Positions 1,260 to 43,975 of a DNA stretch of 49,715 nucleotides are shown piece by piece; the first letter of the stretch is position 1; each line of letters starts with the position of its first letter. The notes under the pieces are model-generated. The model saw only the letters and a program-made list of their open reading frames with translations, had not been told where the DNA came from and ran no database searches. The translations under genes and the position numbers were made by a program. Source of the DNA: a virus (lineage: Duplodnaviria > Heunggongvirae > Uroviricota > Caudoviricetes); IMG/VR virus record IMGVR_UViG_2851949629_000006, positions 1-49,715 of that record, one strand, 5' to 3'.

Positions 1260-1549
1260 CTATCCTTCCTGGACTTTGGTAAGCGTCAGATTTCCGCAGA
1301 ACACTGCGCCGGTGTCGATGTACATCTGGTTTGCATACACCAGTGGGTGATGTGCTGGCGTATGACCGAAGATGAACAAATCGGCACCGGTTATCTCCGA
1401 GACAATACCGTCCTGCGCGTCGCTAACCCGCTCACGATTCCATATCACCATTTCTTCTGGTACTGGCTTATCGAATGCGTATTCGTTGTGCGGGTAGTCT
1501 GCGTGACAGATGACGACCTTCTTATTGCCGGTAACCAGTTCGATAATCA
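1260..1549 (-). pseudogene. C-terminal fragment of a phage Ser/Thr protein phosphatase (lambda PPase-like), separated from its N-terminal part by the IS66 insertion
   Basis: Translation ...[32 protein letters not shown]...[17 protein letters not shown] matches my recollection of the lambda phosphatase C-terminus. Fragment ends exactly at the IS terminus at 1550. Confidence 0.7.
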
Positions 1550-1579
1550 GTAAGCGTCAACGGAGCACCGTATTGACGC

Positions 1580-2113
1580 TTATTTATTAGTGAGTACTAC
1601 GTTCCATGGCAGGAGTTCGTCAACTCGGTTGGAAGGCCATTCCGGCAGTACGCTCAGGATATGGCGCAGATACGCTTCCGGATCGATACCATTCAACCGG
1701 CAGGTGCCGATCAGCCCGTACAACAGTGCACCACGCTCGCCGCCGTGATCGCTACCGAAGAACACGTAATTTTTCTTTCCGAGACAGACTGCACGAAGCG
1801 CTCTTTCCGCTGTGTTATTGTCCGCCTCCGCCAGACCGTCATCACAGAAGTTGCACAACGCAACCCAGTGCTTCCTGATATACCGGAACGCATCTCTCAG
1901 ACGGCATTTTTTCGATAACGTGTGTTCTTTCTCCTGCATCAGCTTATACAGGGAAGTCAGTAGCGGTTTACTCTGCATTTGCCTGACCGCCAGGCGTTCA
2001 GACACCGGCAACCCGCGTATTTCGTGCTCAATGGCGTACAGTTCGCCGATTAGTTTCAGTGCTTCTTCCGCCGTCGCGCTTTTGGTACTGATATATACAT
2101 CGTGGATTTTGCG
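1580..2113 (-). pseudogene. tnpC: IS66 transposase TnpC, C-terminal fragment of copy 3 (cut by copy 2 insertion)
   Basis: ORF translation aligns with the C-terminal ~140 aa of the full 537-aa TnpC but with substitutions; reading frame runs up to the copy-2 terminus at 2114. Confidence 0.75.
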
Positions 2114-2143
2114 GTAAGCGTTAACGGAGTGCCGTATTGACGC

Positions 2144-3757
2144 TTATTTATTGGTGAGTACTACGTTCCATGGCAGGAGTTCGTCAACTCGGTTGGAAGG
2201 CCATTCCGGCAGTACGCTCAGGATATGGCGCAGATACGCTTCCGGATCGATACCGTTCAGTCGGCAGGTGCTGATCAGCCCGTACAACAGTGCTCCTCGC
2301 TCGCCGCCGTGATCGCTGCCGAAGAACATAAAGTTTTTCTTTCCGAGACAGACTGCACGAAGCGCTCTTTCCGCAGCATTATTATCCGCCTCCGCCAGAC
2401 CGTCATCACTGTAATAACAGAGGGCATCCCACTGATTCAGTACATAGCTGAACGCTTCGCCCAGTCTGGATTTTTTCGACAGCGTACCATTCTTCTCCAC
2501 CATCCATTCATGCAGCGACGTCAGTAACACTTTGCTTCGCTGCTGCCTGACGGCAAGACGCTCTGACTCCGGTAATCCCCGTATTTCATCCTCGATGGCG
2601 TACAGTTCACTGATTCGCTTCAGGGCTTCTTCTGCCGTCGCACTTTTGCTGCTGATGTATACATCGTGGATTTTTCGCCGGGCATGGGCCCAGCACGCAA
2701 CTTCTGTCAGTGCACCACCTTCACGTTCTGCACTGAACAACCTGTCGTAACCTGTGAACGCATCCGCCTGCAGGATACCCCGGAAGGGGCGGAGGTGTTG
2801 CTCCGGGTGTTTCCCCTGCCGGTTCGGCGAGTACGCGAACCAGACCGCTGGAGGAGATGACGAACCCACATTGCGATCATCCCGGACATACGTCCAGATA
2901 CGCCCTGTTTTCGCCTTTTTCTGACCCGGTGCCAGTACCTTTACCGGTGTGTCATCAGTGTGAACCTTGCGGGTGTTCATTACATAACGGTACAGGGCAT
3001 CATTCACCGGTGTCATTAACTGGCAGCACGCGTCAACCCAGTTGGAGAGTAAGGCCCGGCTCAGTTCGACACCCTGGCGGGCAAAGATTTCACTCTGACG
3101 ATACAGTGGCAGATGTTCGCAGTATTTTCCCGTTAACACGCGGGCAAGTAATCCGGGGCCCGCGATACCACGCTCTATCGGGCGGGACGGCGCCGGTGCT
3201 TCAACAATACAGTCACATTTTGTACAGGCTTTTTTTACCCGTTCTGTGCGGATCACTTTCAGGGCACTGCTCACCAGTTCCAGCTGTTCAGCGCTGACTT
3301 CCCCCAGATAATCCAGCTCACCGCCACACTCCGGGCAACAGCTTTCTTCTGGCTCCAGGCGGTGTATTTCACGGGGAAGGTGTGCCGGTAACGGACGACG
3401 ATGGCGCGACTGTCGCAACTGGCGGGGAACCTGAGGATCGTCTTCCCGCCCACTGTAACGATCGCTGTCCTGTTCACGTTGTTTCAGCAGAGCCTCAGCC
3501 AGTTCAACTTCACGACGCAGTTTTTCAGAACGGGTACCGAACAGCATCCGGCGCAGTTTTTCTATCTGAGCCCGCAGATGTTCTATTTCCCGTTCATCTT
3601 CTTCGATCTTTTCTTCGGCACGTGTCAGTGCAGAGCGCAGGAAGGCTTCCGTCTCTTCAACCAGACTCAGTTGCTGGTCTTTCTGACGGAGGGCTTCAGC
3701 CTGCTCAGAGAGCAACCTTTCCAGCTCTGCGATGCGAATGAGGTATTTCTGACTCAT
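2144..3757 (-). CDS. tnpC: IS66 transposase TnpC (copy 2), 537 aa
   Basis: Full-length ORF; translation identical to the copy-1 TnpC; coiled-coil N-terminus, CxxC zinc motif and DDE-type core typical of IS66 TnpC. Confidence 0.85.
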   Translation of the reverse strand: MSQKYLIRIAELERLLSEQAEALRQKDQQLSLVEETEAFLRSALTRAEEKIEEDEREIEHLRAQIEKLRRMLFGTRSEKLRREVELAEALLKQREQDSDRYSGREDDPQVPRQLRQSRHRRPLPAHLPREIHRLEPEESCCPECGGELDYLGEVSAEQLELVSSALKVIRTERVKKACTKCDCIVEAPAPSRPIERGIAGPGLLARVLTGKYCEHLPLYRQSEIFARQGVELSRALLSNWVDACCQLMTPVNDALYRYVMNTRKVHTDDTPVKVLAPGQKKAKTGRIWTYVRDDRNVGSSSPPAVWFAYSPNRQGKHPEQHLRPFRGILQADAFTGYDRLFSAEREGGALTEVACWAHARRKIHDVYISSKSATAEEALKRISELYAIEDEIRGLPESERLAVRQQRSKVLLTSLHEWMVEKNGTLSKKSRLGEAFSYVLNQWDALCYYSDDGLAEADNNAAERALRAVCLGKKNFMFFGSDHGGERGALLYGLISTCRLNGIDPEAYLRHILSVLPEWPSNRVDELLPWNVVLTNK

Positions 3758-3787
3758 GACCGTTTTTATAATGCGGTCAGGAGTTTT

Positions 3788-4070
3788 TTACAACATTGTC
3801 AGTGAGTTACGGCTGGATGTTTTTGGCTGACGCCAGTCCAGCTTATCGAGGAGCATTGCCAGTTGCGAGCGGGTAATGGATACCTTGCCGTCACGTACCG
3901 CAGGCCAGATAAACTGGCCTTCCTCCAGGCGTTTGGTGAACAGGCACAGACCATCAGCATCAGCCCAAAGAATTTTGACGGTGTCACCCCGTCGGCCACG
4001 GAAGATAAACAGGTGACCGGAGAAGGGATTATCATTCAGCACATGTTGTACCTGTTCTCCCAGTCCGTTG
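3788..4070 (-). pseudogene. tnpB: IS66 TnpB (orfB) of copy 2, C-terminal part, cut by copy 1
   Basis: Translation matches residues ~34-116 of intact TnpB (5745-6095); N-terminal remainder is at 6603-6678. Confidence 0.75.
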
Positions 4071-4100
4071 GTAAGCGTTAACGGAGTGCCGTATTGACGC

Positions 4101-5714
4101 TTATTTATTGGTGAGTACTACGTTCCATGGCAGGAGTTCGTCAACTCGGTTGGAAGGCCATTCCGGCAGTACGCTCAGGATATGGCGCAGATACGCTTCC
4201 GGATCGATACCGTTCAGTCGGCAGGTGCTGATCAGCCCGTACAACAGTGCTCCTCGCTCGCCGCCGTGATCGCTGCCGAAGAACATAAAGTTTTTCTTTC
4301 CGAGACAGACTGCACGAAGCGCTCTTTCCGCAGCATTATTATCCGCCTCCGCCAGACCGTCATCACTGTAATAACAGAGGGCATCCCACTGATTCAGTAC
4401 ATAGCTGAACGCTTCGCCCAGTCTGGATTTTTTCGACAGCGTACCATTCTTCTCCACCATCCATTCATGCAGCGACGTCAGTAACACTTTGCTTCGCTGC
4501 TGCCTGACGGCAAGACGCTCTGACTCCGGTAATCCCCGTATTTCATCCTCGATGGCGTACAGTTCACTGATTCGCTTCAGGGCTTCTTCTGCCGTCGCAC
4601 TTTTGCTGCTGATGTATACATCGTGGATTTTTCGCCGGGCATGGGCCCAGCACGCAACTTCTGTCAGTGCACCACCTTCACGTTCTGCACTGAACAACCT
4701 GTCGTAACCTGTGAACGCATCCGCCTGCAGGATACCCCGGAAGGGGCGGAGGTGTTGCTCCGGGTGTTTCCCCTGCCGGTTCGGCGAGTACGCGAACCAG
4801 ACCGCTGGAGGAGATGACGAACCCACATTGCGATCATCCCGGACATACGTCCAGATACGCCCTGTTTTCGCCTTTTTCTGACCCGGTGCCAGTACCTTTA
4901 CCGGTGTGTCATCAGTGTGAACCTTGCGGGTGTTCATTACATAACGGTACAGGGCATCATTCACCGGTGTCATTAACTGGCAGCACGCGTCAACCCAGTT
5001 GGAGAGTAAGGCCCGGCTCAGTTCGACACCCTGGCGGGCAAAGATTTCACTCTGACGATACAGTGGCAGATGTTCGCAGTATTTTCCCGTTAACACGCGG
5101 GCAAGTAATCCGGGGCCCGCGATACCACGCTCTATCGGGCGGGACGGCGCCGGTGCTTCAACAATACAGTCACATTTTGTACAGGCTTTTTTTACCCGTT
5201 CTGTGCGGATCACTTTCAGGGCACTGCTCACCAGTTCCAGCTGTTCAGCGCTGACTTCCCCCAGATAATCCAGCTCACCGCCACACTCCGGGCAACAGCT
5301 TTCTTCTGGCTCCAGGCGGTGTATTTCACGGGGAAGGTGTGCCGGTAACGGACGACGATGGCGCGACTGTCGCAACTGGCGGGGAACCTGAGGATCGTCT
5401 TCCCGCCCACTGTAACGATCGCTGTCCTGTTCACGTTGTTTCAGCAGAGCCTCAGCCAGTTCAACTTCACGACGCAGTTTTTCAGAACGGGTACCGAACA
5501 GCATCCGGCGCAGTTTTTCTATCTGAGCCCGCAGATGTTCTATTTCCCGTTCATCTTCTTCGATCTTTTCTTCGGCACGTGTCAGTGCAGAGCGCAGGAA
5601 GGCTTCCGTCTCTTCAACCAGACTCAGTTGCTGGTCTTTCTGACGGAGGGCTTCAGCCTGCTCAGAGAGCAACCTTTCCAGCTCTGCGATGCGAATGAGG
5701 TATTTCTGACTCAT
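4101..5714 (-). CDS. tnpC: IS66 transposase TnpC (copy 1), 537 aa
   Basis: Intact ORF, identical to 2144-3757. Confidence 0.85.
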   Translation of the reverse strand: MSQKYLIRIAELERLLSEQAEALRQKDQQLSLVEETEAFLRSALTRAEEKIEEDEREIEHLRAQIEKLRRMLFGTRSEKLRREVELAEALLKQREQDSDRYSGREDDPQVPRQLRQSRHRRPLPAHLPREIHRLEPEESCCPECGGELDYLGEVSAEQLELVSSALKVIRTERVKKACTKCDCIVEAPAPSRPIERGIAGPGLLARVLTGKYCEHLPLYRQSEIFARQGVELSRALLSNWVDACCQLMTPVNDALYRYVMNTRKVHTDDTPVKVLAPGQKKAKTGRIWTYVRDDRNVGSSSPPAVWFAYSPNRQGKHPEQHLRPFRGILQADAFTGYDRLFSAEREGGALTEVACWAHARRKIHDVYISSKSATAEEALKRISELYAIEDEIRGLPESERLAVRQQRSKVLLTSLHEWMVEKNGTLSKKSRLGEAFSYVLNQWDALCYYSDDGLAEADNNAAERALRAVCLGKKNFMFFGSDHGGERGALLYGLISTCRLNGIDPEAYLRHILSVLPEWPSNRVDELLPWNVVLTNK

Positions 5715-5744
5715 GACCGTTTTTATAATGCGGTCAGGAGTTTT

Positions 5745-6095
5745 TTACAACATTGTCAGTGAGTTACGGCGGGATGTTTTTGGCTGACGCCAGTCCAGTT
5801 TATCGAGGAGCATTGCCAGTTGCGAGCGGGTAATGGATACCTTGCCGTCACGTACCGCAGGCCAGATAAACTGGCCTTCCTCCAGGCGTTTGGTGAACAG
5901 GCACAGACCATCAGCATCAGCCCAAAGAATTTTGACGGTGTCACCCCGTCGGCCACGGAAGATAAACAGGTGACCGGAGAAGGGATTATCATTCAGCACA
6001 TGTTGTACCTGTTCTCCCAGTCCGTTGAAGGATTTACGCATATCGGTAACGCCGGCAACGAGCCAGATACGGGTACCTGATGGGAGTGAGATCAT
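5745..6095 (-). CDS. tnpB: IS66 accessory protein TnpB (orfB), copy 1
   Basis: 116-aa ORF between tnpA and tnpC, 4-bp overlap with tnpA; typical IS66 orfB size and position. Confidence 0.8.
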   Translation of the reverse strand: MISLPSGTRIWLVAGVTDMRKSFNGLGEQVQHVLNDNPFSGHLFIFRGRRGDTVKILWADADGLCLFTKRLEEGQFIWPAVRDGKVSITRSQLAMLLDKLDWRQPKTSRRNSLTML

Positions 6096-6517
6096 CTTCC
6101 CCTCCCGGTCAGTTCACGGATCAACACTGTGAGCAGCTCTGGCGATGGATTTTCCAGCGTCATGTTACCGTGACGGAATTCCACCTTGCAGGAACTGGCA
6201 CTGACTCTGGTCTGAGTGGAAGTGGATAAAGACGGCGCAATGGCCGCCACAGGTTCTTTCTGCTCATCCGGCGTTATTTCTACAGGTAATAATTCAACGC
6301 CAGTGTCAGAAGAGGTCGTTACCGGAAGACGCCGCGAAACACGCCCTTCGTTCTGCCAGAGCCTGAGCCATTTGAAAATAACATTATCATTGACGCCATT
6401 TTCACGTGCAATCTGTGCAACACAAGCTCCAGGTTGTGATGCCAGTTCCACCATACGAAGTTTGAATTCATTCGAATAGTTTTTACGAGGTTCTTTTCGC
6501 CAGTCCTGTAATTCCAT
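6092..6517 (-). CDS. tnpA: IS66 accessory protein TnpA (orfA), copy 1
   Basis: 141-aa ORF with a helix-turn-helix region (NEFKLRMVELASQPGACVAQIARENGV); first gene of the IS66 operon. Confidence 0.8.
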   Translation of the reverse strand: MELQDWRKEPRKNYSNEFKLRMVELASQPGACVAQIARENGVNDNVIFKWLRLWQNEGRVSRRLPVTTSSDTGVELLPVEITPDEQKEPVAAIAPSLSTSTQTRVSASSCKVEFRHGNMTLENPSPELLTVLIRELTGRGR

Positions 6518-6602
6518 ACTTAGATGTCCGTCTATATCAGATGGGCGTCTAAGTTACCAATTCTCGTCTGATGGCTACATACGGCGGTCAGTTTACGCTT
6601 AC

Positions 6603-6678
6603 GTCCGTTGAAGGATTTACGCATATCGGTAACGCCGGCAACGAGCCAGATACGGGTACCTGATGGGAGTGAGATCAT
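6603..6678 (-). pseudogene. tnpB: IS66 TnpB (orfB) of copy 2, N-terminal 25 codons, continues at 3788-4070
   Basis: Reverse complement encodes MISLPSGTRIWLVAGVTDMRKSFNG, identical to the TnpB N-terminus; interrupted at the GTCCGTTG duplication. Confidence 0.75.
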
Positions 6679-7100
6679 CTTCCCCTCCCGGTCAGTTCAC
6701 GGATCAACACTGTGAGCAGCTCTGGCGATGGATTTTCCAGCGTCATGTTACCGTGACGGAATTCCACCTTGCAGGAACTGGCACTGACTCTGGTCTGAGT
6801 GGAAGTGGATAAAGACGGCGCAATGGCCGCCACAGGTTCTTTCTGCTCATCCGGCGTTATTTCTACAGGTAATAATTCAACGCCAGTGTCAGAAGAGGTC
6901 GTTACCGGAAGACGCCGCGAAACACGCCCTTCGTTCTGCCAGAGCCTGAGCCATTTGAAAATAACATTATCATTGACGCCATTTTCACGTGCAATCTGTG
7001 CAACACAAGCTCCAGGTTGTGATGCCAGTTCCACCATACGAAGTTTGAATTCATTCGAATAGTTTTTACGAGGTTCTTTTCGCCAGTCCTGTAATTCCAT
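6675..7100 (-). CDS. tnpA: IS66 accessory protein TnpA (orfA), copy 2
   Basis: Identical translation to 6092-6517. Confidence 0.8.
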   Translation of the reverse strand: MELQDWRKEPRKNYSNEFKLRMVELASQPGACVAQIARENGVNDNVIFKWLRLWQNEGRVSRRLPVTTSSDTGVELLPVEITPDEQKEPVAAIAPSLSTSTQTRVSASSCKVEFRHGNMTLENPSPELLTVLIRELTGRGR

Positions 7101-7185
7101 ACTTAGATGTCCGTCTATATCAGATGGGCGTCTAAGTTACCAATTCTCGTCTGATGGCTACATACGGCGGTCAGTTTACGCTTAC

Positions 7186-8273
7186 ATTTTGCGCCGCGCA
7201 TGAGCCCAGCATCCTGCTTCCGTCAACGCGCCGCCTTCACGTTCGGCACTGAACAGCCGATCGTAACCTGCGAACGCATCTGCCTGCAGGATACCCCGGA
7301 AGGGACGAAGGTGTTGCTCCGGATGTTTACCCTGATGGTCCGGTGAGTAGGCGAACCAGACCGCCGGAGGTTCTGGCGAACCGGCATTTCGGTCATCCCG
7401 GACATACGTCCAGATATATCCTGTTTTCGCCTTCTTCCTGCCCGGTGCCAGTACTTTTACTGGTGTGTCATCAGTGTGAACCTTGCGGGTGTTCATCACA
7501 TAACTGTACAGGGCATCATTCAGCGGAGTCATTAACTGGCAGCACGCATCAACCCAGTTGGAGAGTAAGGCACGGCTCAGTTCGACACCCTGGCGGGCAA
7601 AGATTTCACTCTGACGATACAGTGGCAGGTGTTCGCAGTATTTTCCCGTTAACACGCGGGCAAGTAACCCCGGGCCCGCGATACCACGCTCTATCGGACG
7701 GGATGGTGCCGGTGCTTCAACGATGCAGTCACATTTTGTACAGGCTTTTTTTACCCGTTCTGTGCGGATCACTTTCAGGGCGCTGCTCACCAGCTCCAGT
7801 TGTTCTGCGCTGACTTCCCCCAGATAATCCAGCTCACCGCCACACTCCGGGCAACAGCTTTCTTCAGGCTCCAGGCGGTATATTTCACGGGGGAGATGTG
7901 CCGGTAACGGACGACGATGGCGCGACTGTCGCAACTGGCGGGGAACCAGCGGGTCATCCTCACGCCCACTGTAACGATCGCTTTCCTGCTCGCGTTGTTT
8001 CAGCAGGACTTCAGCCTGTTCAACCTCACTACGCAGTTTTTCAGAACGGGTTCCGAACAGCATCCGGCGCAGTTTTTCTATCTGAGCCCGCAGATGCTCT
8101 ATTTCTCGCTCATCTTCTTCGATCTTTTCTTCGGCACGTGCCAGTGCAGAGCGCAGGAAGGCCTCCGTCTCTTCAACCAGACTCAGTTGCTGGTCTTTCT
8201 GACGGAGGGCTTCAGCCTGCTCAGAGAGCAGCCTTTCCAGCTCAGCGATGCGAATGAGGTATTTCTGACCCAT
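7186..8273 (-). pseudogene. tnpC: IS66 transposase TnpC of copy 3, N-terminal ~360 codons (cut by copy 2)
   Basis: Translation MGQKYLIRIAELERLL... is a diverged homolog of copy 1/2 TnpC; ORF runs into the copy-2 terminus and stops 4 nt inside it. Confidence 0.75.
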
Positions 8274-8303
8274 GGCCGTTTTTATAATCCGGCCCGGCGT
8301 TTT

Positions 8304-8654
8304 TTACAACATTGTCAGTGCGTTAAGGCGGGATGTTTTTGGCTGACGCCAGTCCAGCTTATCGAGGAGCATTGCCAGTTGCGAGCGGGTAATGGATATC
8401 TTACCGTCATGCACCGCAGGCCAGATAAACTGACCTTCCTCAAGGCGTTTGGTGAACAGGCACAGACCATCAGCATCAGCCCACAGGATTTTAATCGTGT
8501 CTCCCCGTCGGCCACGGAAGATAAACAGGTGACCGGAGAAGGGGTTATCATCCAGCACATGCTGTATCTGCTCCCCCAGACCGTTGAAGGATTTACGCAT
8601 ATCAGTAACGCCGGCAACGAGCCAGATACGGGTACCTGATGGGAGTGAAATCAT
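8304..8654 (-). CDS. tnpB: IS66 accessory protein TnpB (orfB), copy 3
   Basis: 116-aa ORF, diverged homolog of copy-1 TnpB. Confidence 0.8.
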   Translation of the reverse strand: MISLPSGTRIWLVAGVTDMRKSFNGLGEQIQHVLDDNPFSGHLFIFRGRRGDTIKILWADADGLCLFTKRLEEGQFIWPAVHDGKISITRSQLAMLLDKLDWRQPKTSRLNALTML

Positions 8655-9088
8655 CGTCCCCTCCCGGTCAGCTCACGGATCAACACCGTGAGCAGCTCTG
8701 GTGAAGGATTTTCCAGCATCATTTTACCGTAATGGAATTCCACATGGCAGGAAGCTGCACAAGCAACTGATAATGCCTCCGGAGCAGGAGCATCTGTAGC
8801 ACAGCGCGGGGTGTCGATAAGTTCCACTGGAACCAGAGTCGGAGAGGCCGGAAAAGATTGTGATACTGTAGGGCCTACAATAGTTGGAGGCATTCTACGA
8901 GAAATACGTCCTTCTCTTTGCCAGAGGCGTAGCCATTTAAAAATCAGGTTGTTATCAACGCCATGTTCCCGGGCCAGTTGTGCAACATTGGCATTTGGTT
9001 TCGAAGCCAGTTCAACCATATGAAGTTTAAATTCATTAGAAAATATCCGGCGGGTTCCGGAGCGCCAGTCTGTAGGTTTATCCATCAA
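8651..9088 (-). CDS. tnpA: IS66 accessory protein TnpA (orfA), copy 3
   Basis: 145-aa ORF, diverged homolog of copy-1 TnpA (conserved NEFKL.MVELAS and FKWLRLWQ segments). Confidence 0.8.
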   Translation of the reverse strand: MMDKPTDWRSGTRRIFSNEFKLHMVELASKPNANVAQLAREHGVDNNLIFKWLRLWQREGRISRRMPPTIVGPTVSQSFPASPTLVPVELIDTPRCATDAPAPEALSVACAASCHVEFHYGKMMLENPSPELLTVLIRELTGRGR

Positions 9089-13314: not shown

Positions 13315-13404
13315 TTACCTCGGTCTGTTACCGTTGAGGTAATGATTATGCGTATCTGGTTTGATGTCAATAGATATGAGTTAAAAAAATTACCCGACAG
13401 GTAA
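13315..13404. promoter_or_regulatory. O_L-like operator cluster: palindromes TTACCGTTGAGGTAA (13328-13342) and TTACCCGACAGGTAA (13390-13404), plus half-site at 13315
   Basis: 15-bp TTACC-N5-GGTAA inverted repeats between the repressor gene 3' end and the leftward early operon. Confidence 0.6.
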
Positions 13405-13461
13405 TTGAGCAGGCAATAAAAAAGCCGCCAGAAGGCAGCTTACTTACTGAAAAATATGATT

Positions 13462-14046
13462 TTATTGTTTGTTTTTTTCGTTCTGGTTGATGACAAATTC
13501 AATGTAACTTTCGATCTTTGCCTTCTCTGTTTCAGGTAACAATGCGTAGCGCGAGCGGTCATAGTTGATAGTCGCGGGGTCGTGCGGGTGAATCAGTAAT
13601 TCATAGCCGTGACGCCCGAATGCGGATGCAACATTCTCCAGGGTGGAAATGGAAACGCTGACCTCATTGTTTAACAGGCGGCTGATTGTCACCTGGGCGA
13701 CGCCGGATGCGCGGTGAAGTTTTCCCTGAGTTGAAAGGTCGCGGCTTTCGCTCATCCAGCGTTCCAGGTTGTGAGCCGCCAGCTGACCAATGTCGCTTGG
13801 GCCGACAGGCTGAAAACCTTCCTGAGAAAGCGAGCGATCGATATCAAGCCAGTTACGGGGTTTATTGGCGGCAGCTTCAATTTTTCGCGCAACCTGGTCG
13901 CCGATAACCTTCTTGCCAAGAGCCCAGCGGTTTACCAGATTTGCCTGAGTTCCAAGTTTTTCTGCCATCCGCGTCTGAACACCATTGAATTCACGGTCGA
14001 TCAAGTCGTTGAGATTTTGCCTGCGGACGTCCTGGATACTTTTCAT
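13462..14046 (-). CDS. prophage repressor with two HTH domains and no S24 peptidase domain
   Basis: Sits between the O_L and O_R palindrome clusters, divergent from the cro-like gene. Two HTH-like segments (TRMAEKLGTQANLVNRW and GVAQVTISRLLNNE). No Ser-Lys autocleavage domain recognisable. Confidence 0.6.
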   Translation of the reverse strand: MKSIQDVRRQNLNDLIDREFNGVQTRMAEKLGTQANLVNRWALGKKVIGDQVARKIEAAANKPRNWLDIDRSLSQEGFQPVGPSDIGQLAAHNLERWMSESRDLSTQGKLHRASGVAQVTISRLLNNEVSVSISTLENVASAFGRHGYELLIHPHDPATINYDRSRYALLPETEKAKIESYIEFVINQNEKNKQ

Positions 14047-14101: not shown

Positions 14102-14164
14102 TTACCCAACAGGTAAATGCACCCCATAGGTAACTATCCTTGATTTTTGTTACCTTATGGGTGA
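14102..14164. promoter_or_regulatory. O_R-like operator cluster: TTACCCAACAGGTAA (14102-14116), half-site CATAGGTAA, TTACCTTATGGGTGA (14150-14164)
   Basis: Palindromes in the 154-bp divergent region between repressor start (14046) and cro-like start (14201). Confidence 0.6.
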
Positions 14165-14200
14165 ATATTTATTATCTGAAATAAATATCAGGCAATAGCT

Positions 14201-14431
14201 ATGAGCGATAACGGACATTTCGATTTCAAAAAGCACTGGCTTGCACTTACTCCGGATGAGCGTGAAGCCTTCGCACAGGAAGCCGGAACGACGAGTCACT
14301 ATATCCAGACTCACTTAACAGGTAAGCGAAAAATGCCAGGTAAGGTATTGATGAATGGGCTTTTTAAAGCCTGTAAATCAAGACAATGGCTGCGCTCAAA
14401 AGCAGAACTGGCATACTTCTTCTACTCATGA
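14201..14431 (+). CDS. Cro-like small regulator
   Basis: 76-aa ORF divergent from the repressor, immediately right of O_R; functional assignment is by position. Confidence 0.5.
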   Translation: MSDNGHFDFKKHWLALTPDEREAFAQEAGTTSHYIQTHLTGKRKMPGKVLMNGLFKACKSRQWLRSKAELAYFFYS

Positions 14432-14581
14432 TATCCAGCCACAACCCTCTGTAGACCGCCATCCGGCGGTCTTTTCATATCTATTCGCACCTCAAAGGTA
14501 ATAAAAAACCAAATCTGGTTGATCTTTTTTTTGTGTCAGCACAAAATGACCGTAATCCCAATACTAATAACAGGGCTTACC

Positions 14582-40728: not shown

Positions 40729-41268
40729 TTACCAAAACTTGTACCACGGGGATTTATCCTTCAATGGACAATCCTTCCATCGTGTGGCCAACCATTCATA
40801 TTCTTTAAAATATGTGTTTATGTTTTCTTTTTCTCTAATAGCTTGTATAAGAGGTAGCGCAATCTGATAGTTATTTACAACGGAGCTGTAAAATACTTCC
40901 TTAATCATGGTCTCATCATAAGTTTTCCGCTTCACGCTCACAGCCATGCGTTCGTAGAAACCTAGACAGTAAATTATTTCTCTCTTCTCTATCTTTTCTT
41001 CATCCGTAAGATCAGCCTGCCCATTGCTTGGATACATATAAGAGCGGAATGATTTGTTCGATTCGTGAATGCGGCGCATAGTAGATAGGCCTTTCTTATA
41101 ATCTACATCAAACCTGCTTTCACCAAGGAATACTGAAGTGTGTACTTTTCTCGCTGTATTTACATTATAAATAATAGTAGCGATAGCTATGAACAAGCCA
41201 AGCGAAACCGCGACTGCACTTACGATTTGAGCCACAGCCATGGCAAATTGCATTTCTTCACTTAACAC
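40729..41268 (-). CDS. N-terminally membrane-anchored protein (179 aa), accessory gene
   Basis: GTG start with GGAGA RBS; one N-terminal TM helix (FAMAVAQIVSAVAVSLGLFIAIATIIY) then a soluble domain; AT-rich codon usage. Confidence 0.5.
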   Translation of the reverse strand: MLSEEMQFAMAVAQIVSAVAVSLGLFIAIATIIYNVNTARKVHTSVFLGESRFDVDYKKGLSTMRRIHESNKSFRSYMYPSNGQADLTDEEKIEKREIIYCLGFYERMAVSVKRKTYDETMIKEVFYSSVVNNYQIALPLIQAIREKENINTYFKEYEWLATRWKDCPLKDKSPWYKFW

Positions 41269-41289
41269 AAACTGTCTCCAGACATGAAA

Positions 41290-41309
41290 ACGGGGCCTAA
41301 TGGCCCCGT
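41290..41309 (-). terminator. intrinsic terminator downstream of the antirepressor gene
   Basis: Hairpin ACGGGGCC-TAAT-GGCCCCGT; on the minus strand it is followed by TTTTCAT. Confidence 0.5.
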
Positions 41310-41485
41310 CATAAAACTATCCGAATGTTAAACGCCTTCGTACTCGTCAAATTTTCTCATGTGGGCTCCTCCTGTATCGGTGCCTAATCGCTATGGATCA
41401 CCCGTAAGGTAATAGTACTCTATTCACCCCCGGTCTGCAATCTGTACAGAATTATTTAAAGGCACATCCCTGTGCCGCCGTTCTG

Positions 41486-42142
41486 TCAGAAGAACCCTGC
41501 CTTGTCGTTGATGTACTCCGCGTGAGTCTGGATATCACGCAGGCATTTGCTCACACCGACGATGTAGCAGAACATGGTGGTCAGCTCCGCCGCCGCGCCC
41601 GATACGTCGTGCCCGTCGTCCTGTAACTGGTTCAGCAGATTCATCAGCAGTGAGTTCTCCGTCAGGCCGAGAACACCAGACGGAGAATGAATCAGACTGC
41701 GGTAGCCAGGCTTCAGTGGGGCGCTGTATTCTTTTTTGTCTTCCAGCTTGATCGCCTCCATAATGGCGGGCATGAAGCCTGACAAGACCTTCTCCACTTT
41801 TGTTTCTTGTTGTCTTAAACGTTTCTCGCATTCAATGAAGTAGCGTCGCACCTGGCGACCTTTTTCGTTACGCTCGACCATTGCCAGCTCTTTGGCTGTA
41901 TCGAGGGTGAGGTGGTACTCTTTGCGGTTGTGGCCGCCTCTACCAGATGTTTGCTTTCCCAAATTGGAAAGCAAAATATAGTCTTGATTTTCAATGAATT
42001 CGTATTCTGAAATTCGATTTGTAATCCATGCTGCAAACACCTTTTTAACACCTAAAAAAGCGTGCAGATCGCGGGCATTACAAAGTAGGGCTGTTTCGTT
42101 AGATATAGTGCCGTTGAATACGGGGATGAGTTGAGCGTTCAT
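41486..42142 (-). CDS. antirepressor (AntA/Ant-like)
   Basis: 218 aa; N-terminal ...[22 protein letters not shown]... and ...[35 protein letters not shown]... resemble the AntA/AntB N-terminal domain. GGAG RBS. Confidence 0.6.
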
Positions 42143-42296
42143 GATGGTGTCTCCACTTAGCGAATTACATCACCACCGCAACGCCAATTACTGGTGGTGA
42201 ACTGAACAAGGTTGGCGTACCGGCCTAAGTGGTACCGGCGTCCTTTCGGACCCCTGCCCAGCCCACCATAATTCGGATATAGCTGTGCTTAACGCA

Positions 42297-42320
42297 TAAA
42301 AAAACCACGTCTGGCGTGGT
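42297..42320 (-). terminator. intrinsic terminator/attenuator within the ant leader (or 3' end of a small RNA)
   Basis: Minus strand reads ACCACG-CCAGA-CGTGGT followed by seven T (plus strand A-run 42298-42304); located about 110 nt downstream of the predicted ant promoter and about 150 nt upstream of the ant start codon. Confidence 0.5.
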
Positions 42321-42410
42321 ATGCGCCACTTAGTAACTCGGGACGCCAATCCCGGCACTGGATTTTGCCAGTGCCCGATTACTATGGCACAAGAGGAGTG
42401 CGATGTAAAT

Positions 42411-42533
42411 TTACCGTAAAGGTAATAATAAATGCATAACTCACGTTATTTCAACCCTATGTGGTTTGATTGATCCCATTTCAGAAAATACCTGCCTATT
42501 TTTTTGCCAGTATGCGTATACTTTCGATAGAAT
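42411..42533. promoter_or_regulatory. divergent promoter region: operator TTACCGTAAAGGTAA (42411-42425), motif TATGTGGTT (42458-42466), and a plus-strand sigma70-like promoter TTGCCA-17bp-TAGAAT (42505-42533)
   Basis: Operator identical in form to O_L/O_R; on the minus strand a TTGAAA -35 with the -10 overlapping the operator is positioned to drive the ant leader. Confidence 0.5.
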
Positions 42534-42562
42534 GTTAACCCTAGAGGTAGTTGGGGGTGCCC

Positions 42563-43066
42563 ATGAACACGAAGAGAGTTGCAGCGATGAGGCATAGACG
42601 CTTGACCTTGAAAAAGTCTGAAAAAGAAAAAGAGAAAAAGATGGTGATTGAAGCAGCCGCCATAGCAACTGCCAATGCCATCAGGATTCATGATGAAGAA
42701 GTTGAGCAAAAATACCCGGTTATGTTCATCACTGAATACGACCAGCATGAGGCATTGTTAAAAATCCGGGGCACATCTTTTGAAGGAATCTTGGCAGATA
42801 AGCTTCATCGTGCCTCATGTCAAACGAATATAATGCGACCTTACGAGTCAAGGCTAATCGAAACTGGACGCTCCAAGGATAAGCAGCAATTAGTTGAGAT
42901 GATAAAGCGGTATTATAAGTCATCTTTTAAGCCTACAGCGTCACATGAGGTTGTAATGCGAGAAGTACCAAAGATGTCTGTTGAAAAATCGCATGCAATC
43001 TCGCGCAGGATGTTTGCACGCACTGCTGAAGATATGGCTCAGGAGCTCTACGACGATGCCGAATAA
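42563..43066 (+). CDS. hypothetical protein, upstream partner of the YafO-like gene (candidate antitoxin/immunity)
   Basis: 167 aa from the ATG at 42563 (ORF track starts at TTG 42551); basic N-terminus; stop overlaps the downstream start (ATGCCGAATAA). Confidence 0.45.
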   Translation: MNTKRVAAMRHRRLTLKKSEKEKEKKMVIEAAAIATANAIRIHDEEVEQKYPVMFITEYDQHEALLKIRGTSFEGILADKLHRASCQTNIMRPYESRLIETGRSKDKQQLVEMIKRYYKSSFKPTASHEVVMREVPKMSVEKSHAISRRMFARTAEDMAQELYDDAE

Positions 43067-43562
43067 ATTCCAGGGGTTGGTTCACCCTGGAATTTTTGGG
43101 AAGGACCCTGAGCTAATACCTATCAAAAACGCGTTCATAGATCACTGGCGCTACGGTCATCATAAGGATTTCGGAAAGGACACTCTGTTTCGGGATCCAC
43201 CGAAAGAGATGCTGGAATATCACATACGCCACGTTCACGTAAACATCGGAAACTATACTGACAAGTTTGGTGAGAGCGGTACGGAACAATGCTGGAAAAA
43301 CTGGGCATCCGGGAAGAAAGACAAGACCACCAACAAGCATAAAAAAATACCAACCAGTGATGTATATGTGATTTATCTTGTAACGTCTGAGCGACATGCG
43401 TTTCTTCTGGATTACTGGGATGAGCCAGCACACAAAAAAGTAGAAATTGACGAACAGAAACAAAAACTTCTTGTCGAGTGTGACAGAATTTTGCGGCGGA
43501 AAAATTTAGAATCCATGCCGCGCGATGCAAGTTTGTGGGACCCGGAATTTTACGACTGTTAA
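43056..43562 (+). CDS. YafO-family toxin-like protein (candidate type II toxin)
   Basis: 168 aa; segments HHKDFGKDTLFRDP and YHIRHVHVNIGN resemble the YafO segments DTFGRDALYDD and ERVAHIHLANE as I recall them. Confidence 0.45.
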   Translation: MPNKFQGLVHPGIFGKDPELIPIKNAFIDHWRYGHHKDFGKDTLFRDPPKEMLEYHIRHVHVNIGNYTDKFGESGTEQCWKNWASGKKDKTTNKHKKIPTSDVYVIYLVTSERHAFLLDYWDEPAHKKVEIDEQKQKLLVECDRILRRKNLESMPRDASLWDPEFYDC

Positions 43563-43586: not shown

Positions 43587-43862
43587 TTACCGGGTTTGTT
43601 TTCGTAATTGTTCGGCACAATAGTCGAGATGTGTTTGCAGATCCTGCATAGACATCTGTGAGCTGGTGACGTAGTTAATCAGTGCAGTCAGTTCGGCAAG
43701 TGGGCCATCGACATTAAATCCATCCTTATCGAGATCCCGGAGTAATTTCATCAAGTGCGATCCCTCCACCAGTGACCTGACGCCTCCCGGCGTGTGAATC
43801 CTTTCGGTAAATCCGTCTTCCAGTGGATAGTGATACCGCTGCATCTTATCTTCTCCATGCAA
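43587..43862 (-). CDS. small protein paralogous to the antirepressor C-terminal domain
   Basis: 91 aa; ...TPGGVRSLVEGSHLMKLLRDLDKDGFNVDGPLAELTALINYV...MQDLQTHLDY... parallels ...[42 protein letters not shown]...[10 protein letters not shown]... of the 41486-42142 product. Confidence 0.5.
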   Translation of the reverse strand: MHGEDKMQRYHYPLEDGFTERIHTPGGVRSLVEGSHLMKLLRDLDKDGFNVDGPLAELTALINYVTSSQMSMQDLQTHLDYCAEQLRKQTR

Positions 43863-43920
43863 TAACTGTATAAATATACAGTACCAAATAATTTATTGTC
43901 TATCCAGCACGTTTTGCAAA

Positions 43921-43975
43921 TCACCTGAAAGGTAATATCTGTTCGTATTCACAGTCTGTCTATCCATATGTGGTT
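43921..43975. promoter_or_regulatory. divergent promoter region with operator TCACCTGAAAGGTAA (43921-43935) and motif CCATATGTGGTT (43964-43975)
   Basis: Between the Ant-C-like gene (minus) and the tail fibre gene (plus). Confidence 0.5.

What the first reader, a model, noticed from the sequence alone, without database searches (positions are those of the whole stretch)
13462..14046. Repressor lacks an autocleavage domain while the phage encodes an antirepressor
The repressor has two HTH-like segments and no recognisable S24 peptidase region, and an AntA-type antirepressor sits behind a repressor-operator-controlled promoter. This suggests induction by antirepression rather than RecA-mediated cleavage, with the ant leader terminator adding a further control layer.
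Basis: inference. Interest (0 to 1): 0.45.

Follow-up and report, generated by a model that had tools for sequence, protein, structure and literature searches.

The report
Known non-cleavable repressor, two antirepressors

Summary
ORF 13462-14046(-) is a 194-aa repressor with two HTH-like segments and no S24 peptidase. It matches the solved Salmonella phage SPC32H repressor (PDB 5D50_A) over its full length (E 4e-42).

The interpretation, induction by antirepression, is right in kind. It is already established for this phage family (Uetakevirus: epsilon15, phiV10, SPC32H).

An 85-aa ORF at 43587-43844(-) is 88% identical to SPC32H Ant (5D50_E). It sits behind the only strong LexA box in the window (43864-43883, 18/20 to consensus). 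That box aligns with the one whose C-to-A change separates SPC32N from SPC32H.

The AntA-type gene (41486-42142, -) has no LexA box. Its last ~80 residues are a paralogue of the small Ant (44% identity; E 8e-14 to 5D50_E).

The "leader terminator" is the terminator of an isrK sRNA (Rfam 67 bits). A C4 antisense RNA (65 bits) follows it. The C4 loop and linker pair with the ant ribosome-binding region and with isrK, and three-way covariation across nine phages supports this. This resembles P1 immI and the Gifsy-1 isrK locus.

A TTACC-N5-GGTAA site overlaps the promoter; that Rep binds it is inferred.

Verdict: a new member of a known kind, of modest interest.

The parts
13462..14046 (-). rep: 194-aa SPC32H-type repressor (DNA-binding domain, HTH_3-like dimerisation domain, C-terminal tetramerisation/Ant-binding domain); no S24 peptidase
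   Evidence: ORF. Pfam HTH_3 at 104-147, weak HTH at 20-61, no S24. PDB 5D50_A E 4e-42 over residues 1-190. 42% identical to SPC32H Rep. Domain names from PMC9986798.
14102..14164 (.). OR-like cluster of three TTACC-N5-GGTAA sites (14102-14116, 14119-14133, 14150-14164) between rep and the cro-like gene; the third lies in the spacer of the PR-like promoter TTGTTA-17-TATTAT (14147-14175, +)
   Evidence: SPC32H has three sites in the same position. Rep binding is inferred, not shown.
14201..14431 (+). cro-like gene, 76 aa, divergent from rep
   Evidence: ORF; phrog_35 transcriptional repressor, E 8.7e-13.
13328..13441 (-). rep terminator (13422-13441), then two OL-like sites (13390-13404, 13328-13342; 62 bp apart) and the PL-like promoter TTGACA-17-AATCAT (13370..13342), whose -10 abuts the site
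43587..43844 (-). small ant: 85-aa orthologue of SPC32H Ant, the SOS-controlled antirepressor
   Evidence: PDB 5D50_E E 1.4e-46. 88% identical to the annotated SPC32H ant product. The start is the ATG at 43844, the seventh codon of the listed ORF 43587-43862.
43864..43883 (.). LexA box AACTGTATAAATATACAGTA overlapping the -10 of the small-ant promoter (TAGACA-18-TATATT, 43902..43873, -)
   Evidence: It is the only site in the window with 8/8 core and 18/20 total matches to the SOS-box consensus. Promoter scan. It is conserved in SPC32H and phiV10. In the fetched 7.2-kb ant-region loci, SPC32N differs from SPC32H by a C-to-A change in the homologous box.
43921..43935 (.). operator-like site TCACCTGAAAGGTAA between small ant and the tailspike gene
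   Evidence: It is conserved in SPC32H (TTACCTGTAAGGTAA at 20013-20027) and phiV10.
42381..42454 (-). promoter region of the isrK-C4-ant unit: upstream promoter TTGAAA-18-TATTAT (42454..42425), whose -10 abuts operator-like TTACCTTTACGGTAA (42411-42425); second promoter TTTACA-17-(TG)CATAGT (42409..42381), placed 7 nt before the isrK 5' end
   Evidence: In all nine phages compared the half-sites are fixed while the 5-nt spacer varies.
   Evidence: Rfam RF01394, 67.2 bits against a gathering score of 50. Terminator scan. a1/b1 complementarity to C4.
42190..42273 (-). C4 antisense RNA; loop b' CCACUUAG (42225-42232) and linker a' ACGCCAA (42212-42218)
   Evidence: Rfam RF01695, 64.7 bits against a gathering score of 45. 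Complementarity and covariation.
42153..42187 (-). C4 target sites in the ant leader: a2 UUGGCGU (42181-42187) and b2 CUAAGUGG (42153-42160). b2 overlaps the GGAG Shine-Dalgarno sequence (42151-42154); the start codon begins at 42142.
   Evidence: Perfect 7- and 8-nt complementarity to C4. The same arrangement occurs in 8 relatives, with three a-variants and three b-variants that change together at all three places.
41486..42142 (-). large antirepressor, 218 aa: AntA N-terminal domain (22-92) fused to a C-terminal paralogue (about 134-213) of the small Ant
   Evidence: Pfam AntA E 4e-26. C-terminus versus small Ant: 44% identity, E 5e-16. C-terminus versus 5D50_E: E 8e-14. The C-terminus is ~94% identical to that of ZX5 ORF4. 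The first 107 codons are ~91% nt identical to ant genes of Stx phages.

Best explanation
The window is an E. coli prophage of the phiV10/epsilon15 group (Uetakevirus) carrying the SPC32H-type Rep/Ant lysis-lysogeny switch.

1. Repression. The 194-aa Rep has no protease domain. By homology it acts as a tetramer on palindromic operators. I infer these to be the TTACC-N5-GGTAA sites that overlap the PR-like and PL-like promoters and most other transcription units.

2. SOS induction. DNA damage does not cleave Rep. LexA leaves the SOS box that overlaps the promoter of an 85-aa ant gene at 43587-43844. Ant then binds the C-terminal domain of Rep and takes the tetramer apart, releasing the operators. 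This is shown for SPC32H and inferred here.

3. The second antirepressor. It is not LexA-controlled. Its transcription starts in a promoter region overlapped by a Rep-type operator.

4. The RNA gate. Translation of the large ant is gated as in P1 immI. A C4 antisense RNA made from the same leader pairs with two sites (a2, b2), and b2 covers the ribosome-binding site. The isrK sRNA upstream ends at the 'leader terminator' and carries decoy copies (a1, b1) of those sites. By analogy with Gifsy-1 IsrK, it would relieve the block when abundant.

5. Likely role. The large antirepressor most plausibly acts after Rep has begun to fail, or on superinfection. It would reinforce derepression rather than sense the SOS signal.
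For: Family: the rep region is 96-98% nt identical to phages BP9, PAS61 and phiV10.

Rep: full-length match to 5D50_A, and no S24.

Small Ant: 5D50_E at E 1.4e-46, 88% identical to the gene annotated ant in SPC32H.

LexA box: 18/20 to consensus and unique in the window. It overlaps the predicted -10 and is conserved in SPC32H and phiV10. In the fetched ant-region loci, SPC32N differs from SPC32H by one base in this box.

Literature:
- Ant is made after LexA cleavage and inhibits the repressor (PMC7380047).
- Rep binds palindromic sites as a tetramer, and the Ant tetramer breaks it (PMC9638917).
- The C-terminal domain binds Ant (PMC9986798).

Large Ant: its C-domain is homologous to Ant. This domain occurs only in phage records that also hold the small Ant. 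Overexpressing ZX5 ORF4, which has a ~94% identical C-domain, lowered prophage titre about 1000-fold (PMC9782041).

RNA gate: Rfam finds isrK and C4 above gathering score. The same pair lies upstream of the large ant in 8 relatives and is absent from SPC32H. Pairing is perfect for a'/a2, b'/b2 and a'/a1; b'/b1 is perfect in seven of the nine phages and keeps pairing through one G-U in the other two. The 3 x 3 specificity variants covary at all three places.

Precedents: P1 c4-icd-ant, repressed by C1 and by C4 RNA (PMC8198154; PMC7313666). Gifsy-1 isrK-orf45-anrP, where terminator read-through gives an inactive mRNA and short IsrK activates it in trans (PMC4825925).

Operator motif: strongly enriched in the window and in SPC32H at homologous places. 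It overlaps core promoter elements.
Against: - Nothing has been tested on this phage.
- Rep is only 42% identical to SPC32H Rep, so Ant binding is inferred from homology.
- I could not read the two primary SPC32H papers. The identity of TTACC-N5-GGTAA as the Rep operator is therefore my inference from position and enrichment, not a cited result.
- The motif also precedes late operons, so another regulator (Cro-like or a late factor) could share or own it.
- The operator at the isrK promoter is centred near -44 of the downstream promoter. That position is compatible with activation as well as repression.
- The ZX5 experiment was overexpression of a GST fusion. It did not test binding to Rep.
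- The feedback role of the large antirepressor is speculation.
- IS66-type insertions in the left arm mean the prophage may not be inducible at all.
Confidence: 0.8

Rival explanations
1. One reading: the AntA-type protein is the inducer. It is released when its operator-controlled promoter opens, so induction bypasses the SOS/RecA pathway altogether.
For: The AntA-type gene carries an Ant-like C-domain. An operator-like site overlaps its promoter. It has no LexA box. A relative's large antirepressor reduces lysogeny when overexpressed.
Against: - A promoter shut by Rep cannot by itself start the inactivation of Rep.
- The window holds an intact orthologue of the LexA-controlled SPC32H ant with a near-consensus SOS box.
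- SPC32H is SOS-inducible and has no large antirepressor and no isrK/C4.
- phiV10, an isolated phage, has a large antirepressor truncated within its C-domain.
Confidence: 0.1
2. The large AntA-type protein is not aimed at the phage's own repressor during induction. It is an anti-immunity or cross-talk factor, like P1 or P22 Ant. It would be expressed from an incoming genome to overcome a resident homoimmune prophage. Alternatively, it would act through its exchangeable N-terminal domain on other prophages or on host targets.
For: - The control region is P1 immI-like, and P1 Ant is described as a secondary antirepressor under the same double control.
- phiV10 annotators called the homologue an anti-immunity protein.
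- The N-terminal domain is swapped among AntA, BRO-N and ORF6N in close relatives.
- Here that domain is ~91% nt identical to the ant genes of Stx phages.
- Antirepressor cross-talk between prophages is documented in Salmonella.
- The a/b specificity variants of C4 would let co-resident relatives gate their ant genes independently.
Against: The C-domain, the only part homologous to a protein with a known target, points to the phage's own Rep family. No function is known for the N-terminal domains. This reading also does not exclude a role in the phage's own induction.
Confidence: 0.3
3. Rep is inactivated by RecA-stimulated self-cleavage after all, through a cryptic or non-canonical protease site.
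For: None found. Only the general precedent of lambda, P22 and 434 repressors.
Against: No S24 match even at E<=1. The whole 194 aa aligns to a solved protein made of helical DNA-binding and dimerisation domains plus a small tetramerisation domain. The literature states that the homologue is inactivated by Ant, not by cleavage.
Confidence: 0.02

Closest known systems
Rep/Ant switch of Salmonella phage SPC32H (Kim & Ryu 2013, J Virol; Kim et al. 2016, PNAS; PDB 5D4Z, 5D50)
   Same: - Same genus.
- Full-length homologous Rep without a protease domain.
- Orthologous small Ant, 88% identical, in the same place between the tail genes and the tailspike gene.
- Homologous LexA box overlapping the ant promoter.
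- The same TTACC-N5-GGTAA sites at homologous positions.
   Different: - Rep is only 42% identical.
- The window has a second, larger antirepressor with an isrK/C4 RNA gate, plus a toxin-antitoxin-like pair inserted next to ant. SPC32H has neither.
immI region of phages P1/P7 (c4 antisense RNA - icd - ant1/2)
   Same: - An antirepressor gene is transcribed from a promoter controlled by the main repressor. It is also blocked by a C4 antisense RNA encoded in its own leader.
- Two short pairing sites (a, b) are present both upstream and downstream of C4.
- Specificity is set by those short sequences.
   Different: - There is no icd-like ORF between C4 and ant. Here b2 overlaps the Shine-Dalgarno sequence of ant itself.
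- The a1/b1 copy lies in a separately terminated isrK sRNA.
- The antirepressor protein and the repressor are unrelated to P1 Ant and C1.
- This phage also has a separate LexA-controlled antirepressor.
Gifsy-1 isrK locus of Salmonella (isrK - orf45/STnc1160 - anrP - isrJ; PMC4825925)
   Same: The layout is the same: promoter, IsrK sRNA with a leaky intrinsic terminator, a structured RNA, then an antirepressor-like gene. In Gifsy-1, short IsrK activates translation of the read-through transcript in trans, and AnrP induces the prophage.
   Different: - The orf45-like reading frame over C4 is closed by a stop codon in the window (sequence), so translational coupling through it cannot apply.
- The downstream output here is Rep inactivation rather than AntQ expression.
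- No isrJ was detected.
LexA-controlled antirepressors of coliphage 186 (Tum) and the Gifsy/Fels-2 prophages
   Same: The logic is the same: a non-cleavable repressor, and a small antirepressor repressed by LexA.
   Different: No Tum-family or Gifsy-type antirepressor match turned up for the small Ant: it has no NCBIfam hit, and its only PDB and phage-collection matches are SPC32H-type Ant. It was not scanned against Pfam. Different repressor family.
Phage vB_EcoP_ZX5 ORF4/ORF21 (PMC9782041)
   Same: The rep region is ~98% nt identical. ORF4 has a C-terminal domain ~94% identical to that of the window's AntA-type protein and the same isrK/C4 leader. Overexpression data support repressor and antirepressor roles.
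   Different: ORF4 has a BRO-N instead of an AntA N-terminal domain, and a different b specificity (AAAAGG versus AAGTGG). The ZX5 record annotates the small Ant only as a hypothetical protein.

Membership tests
SPC32H-type Rep/Ant antirepression switch | Repressor homologous over its full length to SPC32H Rep (DBD + dimerisation domain + C-terminal Ant-binding tetramerisation domain), without an S24 peptidase | tested here: met
   5D50_A E 4e-42 over residues 1-190; BLASTP 42% identity, E 2e-53; no S24 in Pfam at E<=1.
SPC32H-type Rep/Ant antirepression switch | Small (~86 aa) Ant protein homologous to SPC32H Ant | tested here: met
   43587-43844(-): 5D50_E E 1.4e-46; 88% identical to the SPC32H ant product; same genomic position.
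SPC32H-type Rep/Ant antirepression switch | LexA box overlapping the ant promoter | tested here: met
   43864-43883, 18/20 to consensus. It overlaps the predicted -10. It aligns with the SPC32H box that carries the SPC32N point mutation.
SPC32H-type Rep/Ant antirepression switch | Rep is not cleaved on SOS induction; Ant binds Rep and releases it from the operator | not testable with these tools
   Needs a western blot, pull-down and EMSA. Known only for SPC32H, through secondary sources.
P1 immI-type C4 antisense control of an antirepressor | C4 RNA with the family's structure | tested here: met
   RF01695, 64.7 bits against a gathering score of 45, full-length model match.
P1 immI-type C4 antisense control of an antirepressor | a'/b' of C4 complementary to a2/b2 at the ribosome-binding site of the controlled reading frame, and to a1/b1 upstream | tested here: met
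   In the window, 7- and 8-nt perfect complements at both places. The three sets covary across nine phages (three a-variants, three b-variants); two phages keep the b1 pairing through one G-U.
P1 immI-type C4 antisense control of an antirepressor | Intervening icd-like ORF to which ant is translationally coupled | tested here: not met
   C4 ends 47 nt before the ant start codon, and b2 overlaps ant's own Shine-Dalgarno sequence. The short frame that runs over C4 in ZX5 is closed by a stop in the window. The module works like immI but is not the same operon architecture.
P1 immI-type C4 antisense control of an antirepressor | Operon promoter controlled by the phage's main repressor | tested here: inconclusive
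   An operator-like palindrome is conserved at the promoter in nine phages. Rep binding to it has not been shown.
isrK sRNA (Rfam RF01394) | Covariance-model match above gathering score, with its own intrinsic terminator, located upstream of an antirepressor-like gene | tested here: met
   67.2 bits against a gathering score of 50; terminator; same arrangement as Gifsy-1.
Lambda-type autocleavable CI/LexA repressors (S24) | C-terminal S24 peptidase domain with a Ser/Lys dyad and a cleavable linker | tested here: not met
   No S24 match. The C-terminal half aligns to the solved 5D4Z dimerisation/tetramerisation fragment.
AntA/AntB antirepressor domain proteins (PF08346) | AntA domain above Pfam's gathering score | tested here: met
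   91.8 bits against a cut-off of 27, residues 22-92. The domain's biochemical role is unknown, and close relatives carry BRO-N or ORF6N in its place.

The most novel reading that the evidence does not exclude
E. coli, Enterobacter and Klebsiella Uetakeviruses run a two-stage antirepressor circuit built from one Rep-binding domain used twice.

- Trigger: a LexA-gated 85-aa Ant.
- Second stage: a Rep-repressed, C4/isrK-gated fusion protein that is made only once Rep starts to fail. It would lock in the lytic decision, or serve as anti-immunity on superinfection.

Its N-terminal domain (AntA, BRO-N or ORF6N) is exchangeable and is shared with lambdoid Stx phages. It might add a second target and so couple induction of unrelated co-resident prophages. 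The 3 x 3 a/b specificity variants of C4 would act as private immunity codes among otherwise homoimmune relatives.
Probability: 0.3. Interest if true: 0.5.

Novelty: new member of a known kind. Interest (0 to 1): 0.3.

Why it matters
The main point is one of annotation and interpretation.

In phiV10-like E. coli prophages, some in O157 and other pathogenic strains, the gene that links DNA damage to induction is a small ORF. It is usually labelled 'hypothetical protein', including in phiV10 and ZX5. It is not the conspicuous 'antirepressor' gene. Anyone predicting inducibility, or engineering these phages, should look at the 85-aa ant gene and its LexA box. phiV10 is cited in phage-engineering and pathogen-detection literature.

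The secondary point is that one Rep-binding domain appears under two different control logics in one genome. One copy is LexA-controlled. The other is under a repressor operator plus a C4/isrK RNA gate. The covariation at the RNA pairing sites is very clean. This gives a compact natural system for testing how antisense gates and antirepressors shape the commitment to lysis.

Tried and rejected
- **Cryptic S24 domain.** Pfam at E<=1 finds none. NCBIfam gives only sub-threshold HTH-type matches.
- **LexA box at the AntA promoter.** None. The best candidate in 42100-42600 has 5/8 core matches.
- **Second CTGT-N8-ACAG at 43939-43954.** Only 12/20 to consensus and not conserved in SPC32H or phiV10. 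Treated as chance or weak.
- **Leader terminator as a plain attenuator.** Rejected in favour of the isrK terminator.
- **Small 'ash family' ORF annotated over C4 in ZX5 as a coupling ORF.** In the window it is closed by a stop created by the b' variant, so the region is RNA, not protein.
- **Primary SPC32H papers and the epsilon15 genome paper** (PMC3807360, PMC4983836, PMC2698709). Not held. My recollection of their content is used only where secondary sources or sequence comparison back it.
- **Toxin-antitoxin and defence calls** for 42563-43562 and the DUF4760 gene. No Pfam, NCBIfam or PADLOC support beyond DUF4760 itself. The 'YafO family toxin' label comes only from RefSeq annotation of relatives.
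- **MAFFT alignment of the leaders (A4).** It put some a/b sites out of register, so I counted complementarity directly by script instead.
- **One script call returned nothing** and was repeated.
- **Not used:** the large protein-database searches and structure prediction. The PDB sequence matches were already decisive.
Full report
**What the window is.** The region around the finding is 96-98% identical at the nucleotide level to Escherichia phages BP9, PAS61, phiV10 and phiv142-3, among others. These belong to the genus Uetakevirus, the epsilon15/phiV10/SPC32H group. The window runs from an integrase gene (1-1257) through early, structural and lysis genes. It is a whole prophage of that type.

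**Checking the observation.** The coordinates 13462-14046 are exactly a minus-strand ORF of 194 aa.
- Pfam finds HTH_3 at residues 104-147 and a weaker HTH-type match at 20-61. It finds no Peptidase_S24 even at E<=1.
- The protein aligns over residues 1-190 with the crystallised repressor of Salmonella phage SPC32H (5D50_A, E 4e-42). Its C-terminal half aligns with the 5D4Z fragment. Identity to SPC32H Rep is 42%.
- That protein is described as an N-terminal DNA-binding domain, a middle dimerisation domain and a small C-terminal domain that tetramerises and binds the antirepressor (PMC9986798).

So the two HTH-like segments are real, but the second is a dimerisation module. There is no space for a cryptic protease.

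**The missed gene.** Between the tail genes and the tailspike gene lies an 85-aa ORF at 43587-43844(-). The listed ORF starts six codons earlier.
- It matches SPC32H Ant (5D50_E) at E 1.4e-46 and is 88% identical to the gene annotated ant in SPC32H.
- Twenty nucleotides upstream of its start codon is AACTGTATAAATATACAGTA (43864-43883). This is the only site in the 49.7-kb window with 8/8 core and 18/20 overall matches to the SOS-box consensus.
- The box overlaps the predicted -10 of the ant promoter. It is conserved in SPC32H and phiV10.
- Comparing the fetched 7.2-kb ant-region loci of SPC32H and SPC32N shows only two differences. One is a C-to-A change in the CAG of this very box.

That fits my recollection of Kim & Ryu 2013 that a LexA-box mutation makes SPC32N constitutively lytic. 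I could not open the paper. Secondary sources state that Ant is made after LexA self-cleavage and inactivates the repressor by protein-protein contact (PMC7380047). They also state that Rep binds palindromic sites as a tetramer, which an Ant tetramer breaks into dimers (PMC9638917).

**The AntA-type gene.** ORF 41486-42142(-), 218 aa, has a Pfam AntA domain at 22-92.
- Residues ~134-213 are 44% identical to the small Ant (E 5e-16) and hit 5D50_E directly (E 8e-14).
- In the phage collection this C-domain occurs only in records that also carry the small Ant.
- In close relatives the N-terminal domain is replaced by BRO-N (ZX5, phiV10, TL-2011b) or ORF6N, while the C-domain stays.
- The first 107 codons here are ~91% nt identical to ant genes of Stx phages, so the gene is a chimera.
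- ZX5 ORF4 has a C-domain ~94% identical to the window's. When overexpressed, it lowered prophage titre about 1000-fold, while the ZX5 repressor abolished free phage (PMC9782041).

The large protein is therefore plausibly a second antirepressor for the same Rep. SPC32H has no such gene. In phiV10 it is truncated within the C-domain. It is thus accessory rather than the core trigger.

**The leader.** Rfam shows what it belongs to.
- Positions 42298-42374(-) are an isrK sRNA (67.2 bits, gathering score 50).
- Positions 42190-42273(-) are a C4 antisense RNA (64.7 bits, gathering score 45).
- The same pair precedes the large antirepressor gene in all eight relatives examined. It is absent from the whole SPC32H genome.

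The C4 hairpin loop (b', CCACUUAG) and the adjacent linker (a', ACGCCAA) are perfectly complementary to two leader sites. These are a2 (42181-42187) and b2 (42153-42160). Site b2 overlaps the GGAG Shine-Dalgarno sequence of the ant gene. The same two C4 elements are also complementary to two sites inside isrK, a1 and b1.

Across nine phages there are three a-variants (GGCGT, GGTCT, GAGAC) and three b-variants (AAGTGG, AAAAGG, ACAAAGG). They occur in different combinations, and each changes in step at all three places. Two phages keep the b1 pairing through one G-U. This covariation is strong evidence that the pairings are functional.

The arrangement matches two known systems.
- In P1/P7 immI, ant is repressed transcriptionally by C1 and post-transcriptionally by C4 RNA (PMC8198154; PMC7313666).
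- In the Gifsy-1 isrK locus, read-through of the IsrK terminator gives a translationally silent isrK-orf45-anrP mRNA. Short IsrK activates that mRNA in trans (PMC4825925).

One feature differs from both. No coupling ORF lies between C4 and ant, and the short frame annotated over C4 in ZX5 is closed by a stop in the window.

**Is the promoter repressor-controlled?** The palindrome TTACC-N5-GGTAA occurs 13 times at <=1 mismatch against 0.75 expected.
- Three sites lie between rep and the cro-like gene. One sits in the spacer of the PR-like promoter.
- Two sites, 62 bp apart, lie after the rep terminator. The -10 of a TTGACA-17-AATCAT promoter abuts one of them.
- Other sites lie before most other transcription units.
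- SPC32H has 18 sites at homologous places, against 0.48 expected.

At the isrK-C4-ant unit the site (42411-42425) abuts the -10 of an upstream promoter (TTGAAA-18-TATTAT). It lies just 5' of the -35 of a second promoter (TTTACA-17-TG-CATAGT), which is positioned for the isrK 5' end. In all nine phages the half-sites are fixed while the spacer varies. This is the signature of a protein-binding site.

That Rep is the binding protein is inferred. It rests on the sites' position at the immunity region and on the statement that Rep binds palindromic sites. I could not confirm the published operator sequence. For the downstream promoter the site is centred near -44, which could mean activation rather than repression.

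**Most likely mechanism.**
- Shown by homology to solved and tested proteins: a non-cleavable Rep, and a LexA-gated small Ant that dismantles it.
- Supported by covariation: the C4 antisense gate on the large ant, with isrK carrying decoy sites.
- Inferred: the Rep operators. Also inferred is the timing, with the large antirepressor made only after Rep begins to fail or on superinfection, so that it reinforces the switch or provides anti-immunity.

**Rivals.**
It is unlikely, because a Rep-repressed gene cannot start Rep inactivation and the core family switch works without that gene.
- A pure anti-immunity or cross-talk role for the large protein remains open.
- Autocleavage is effectively excluded.

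**Novelty.** The switch is already known for the family. The isrK/C4/antirepressor cassette is also known in P1, Gifsy-1 and APSE phages. What I have not seen described is the explicit link between the two. The large 'antirepressors' of E. coli Uetakeviruses carry a paralogue of the SPC32H Ant domain, so one genome holds two differently wired copies. I searched only the held library. This makes the finding a new member of a known kind, with a modestly interesting circuit variant.

**Caveats.** No experiment exists for this phage. Rep is divergent from the solved protein. The left arm carries IS66-type repeats, so the prophage may be defective.

Noticed in passing
window 1549-9088: IS66-family transposase genes (tnpA/B/C-sized ORFs) occur in two to three tandem or nested copies, including a 100% identical repeat with 1957-bp spacing. 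They lie between the integrase gene and the MT-A70 methylase gene. Either the prophage left arm is disrupted by repeated IS insertion or this is an assembly artefact.
   Followed up: partly
window 13328, 13390, 14102, 14119, 14150, 16402, 16464, 20795, 20813, 24023, 41398, 42411, 43921; L004 (SPC32H) 18 sites: The TTACC-N5-GGTAA palindrome precedes nearly every transcription unit, late ones included, in both this prophage and SPC32H. It often occurs as pairs exactly 62 bp apart. This suggests one tetrameric repressor silences the whole genome through scattered operators, as P1 C1 does, possibly with looping.
   Followed up: partly
window 13462-14046 vs 43587-43844: Rep is only 42% identical to SPC32H Rep, while the small Ant is 88% identical. 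The antirepressor is far more conserved than its presumed target. I have no explanation for this.
   Followed up: no
window 42563-43066 and 43056-43562 (+): Two overlapping genes are inserted between the two antirepressor genes, transcribed divergently from the isrK promoter region. RefSeq relatives label the second a 'YafO family toxin'. It has no Pfam, NCBIfam or PADLOC hit here. phiV10, ZX5 and phiv142-3 lack the insertion.
   Followed up: partly
window 41269-41485 and 40729-41268 (-): Downstream of the large ant gene lie, in order: an operator-like site (41398-41412) with an abutting -10 (TACTAT); a 10-codon mini-ORF (MRKFDEYEGV) with a strong Shine-Dalgarno sequence; a GC-rich hairpin terminator (about 41287-41310); and a DUF4760 membrane protein gene. 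This may be a small regulatory RNA or leader, comparable in position to isrJ of Gifsy-1. No Rfam hit.
   Followed up: no
L003 (ZX5) 2958-3071; window 42190-42273: The 'ash family protein' CDS annotated in ZX5 lies on top of the C4 RNA. In the window the same frame is closed by the TAG inside the b' loop variant. The CDS is probably an annotation artefact.
   Followed up: yes
L002 (phiV10) 3755-4658: The phiV10 large antirepressor is truncated by a frame change within the Ant-like C-domain. The -35 of its isrK promoter carries a 3-bp deletion. The second antirepressor module looks decayed in this well-studied phage.
   Followed up: partly
window 41822-42146: The first 107 codons of the AntA-type gene are ~91% nt identical to ant genes of Stx1/Stx2-converting lambdoid phages. 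This indicates recent domain exchange between unrelated temperate phages of E. coli.
   Followed up: partly
window 23624-23700 (-): tRNA-Arg(TCT) gene within the prophage, also present in SPC32H.
   Followed up: no
L007 (TL-2011b) 4883-4950: A sar RNA (the P22 ant antisense RNA family, RF00262) hit just above gathering score in a relative, near the tail genes.
   Followed up: no
window 14453-14501: An intrinsic terminator lies directly after the cro-like gene. It is followed by an operator-like site, GCACCTCAAAGGTAA, before the next early genes. This may be a control point for rightward early transcription.
   Followed up: no
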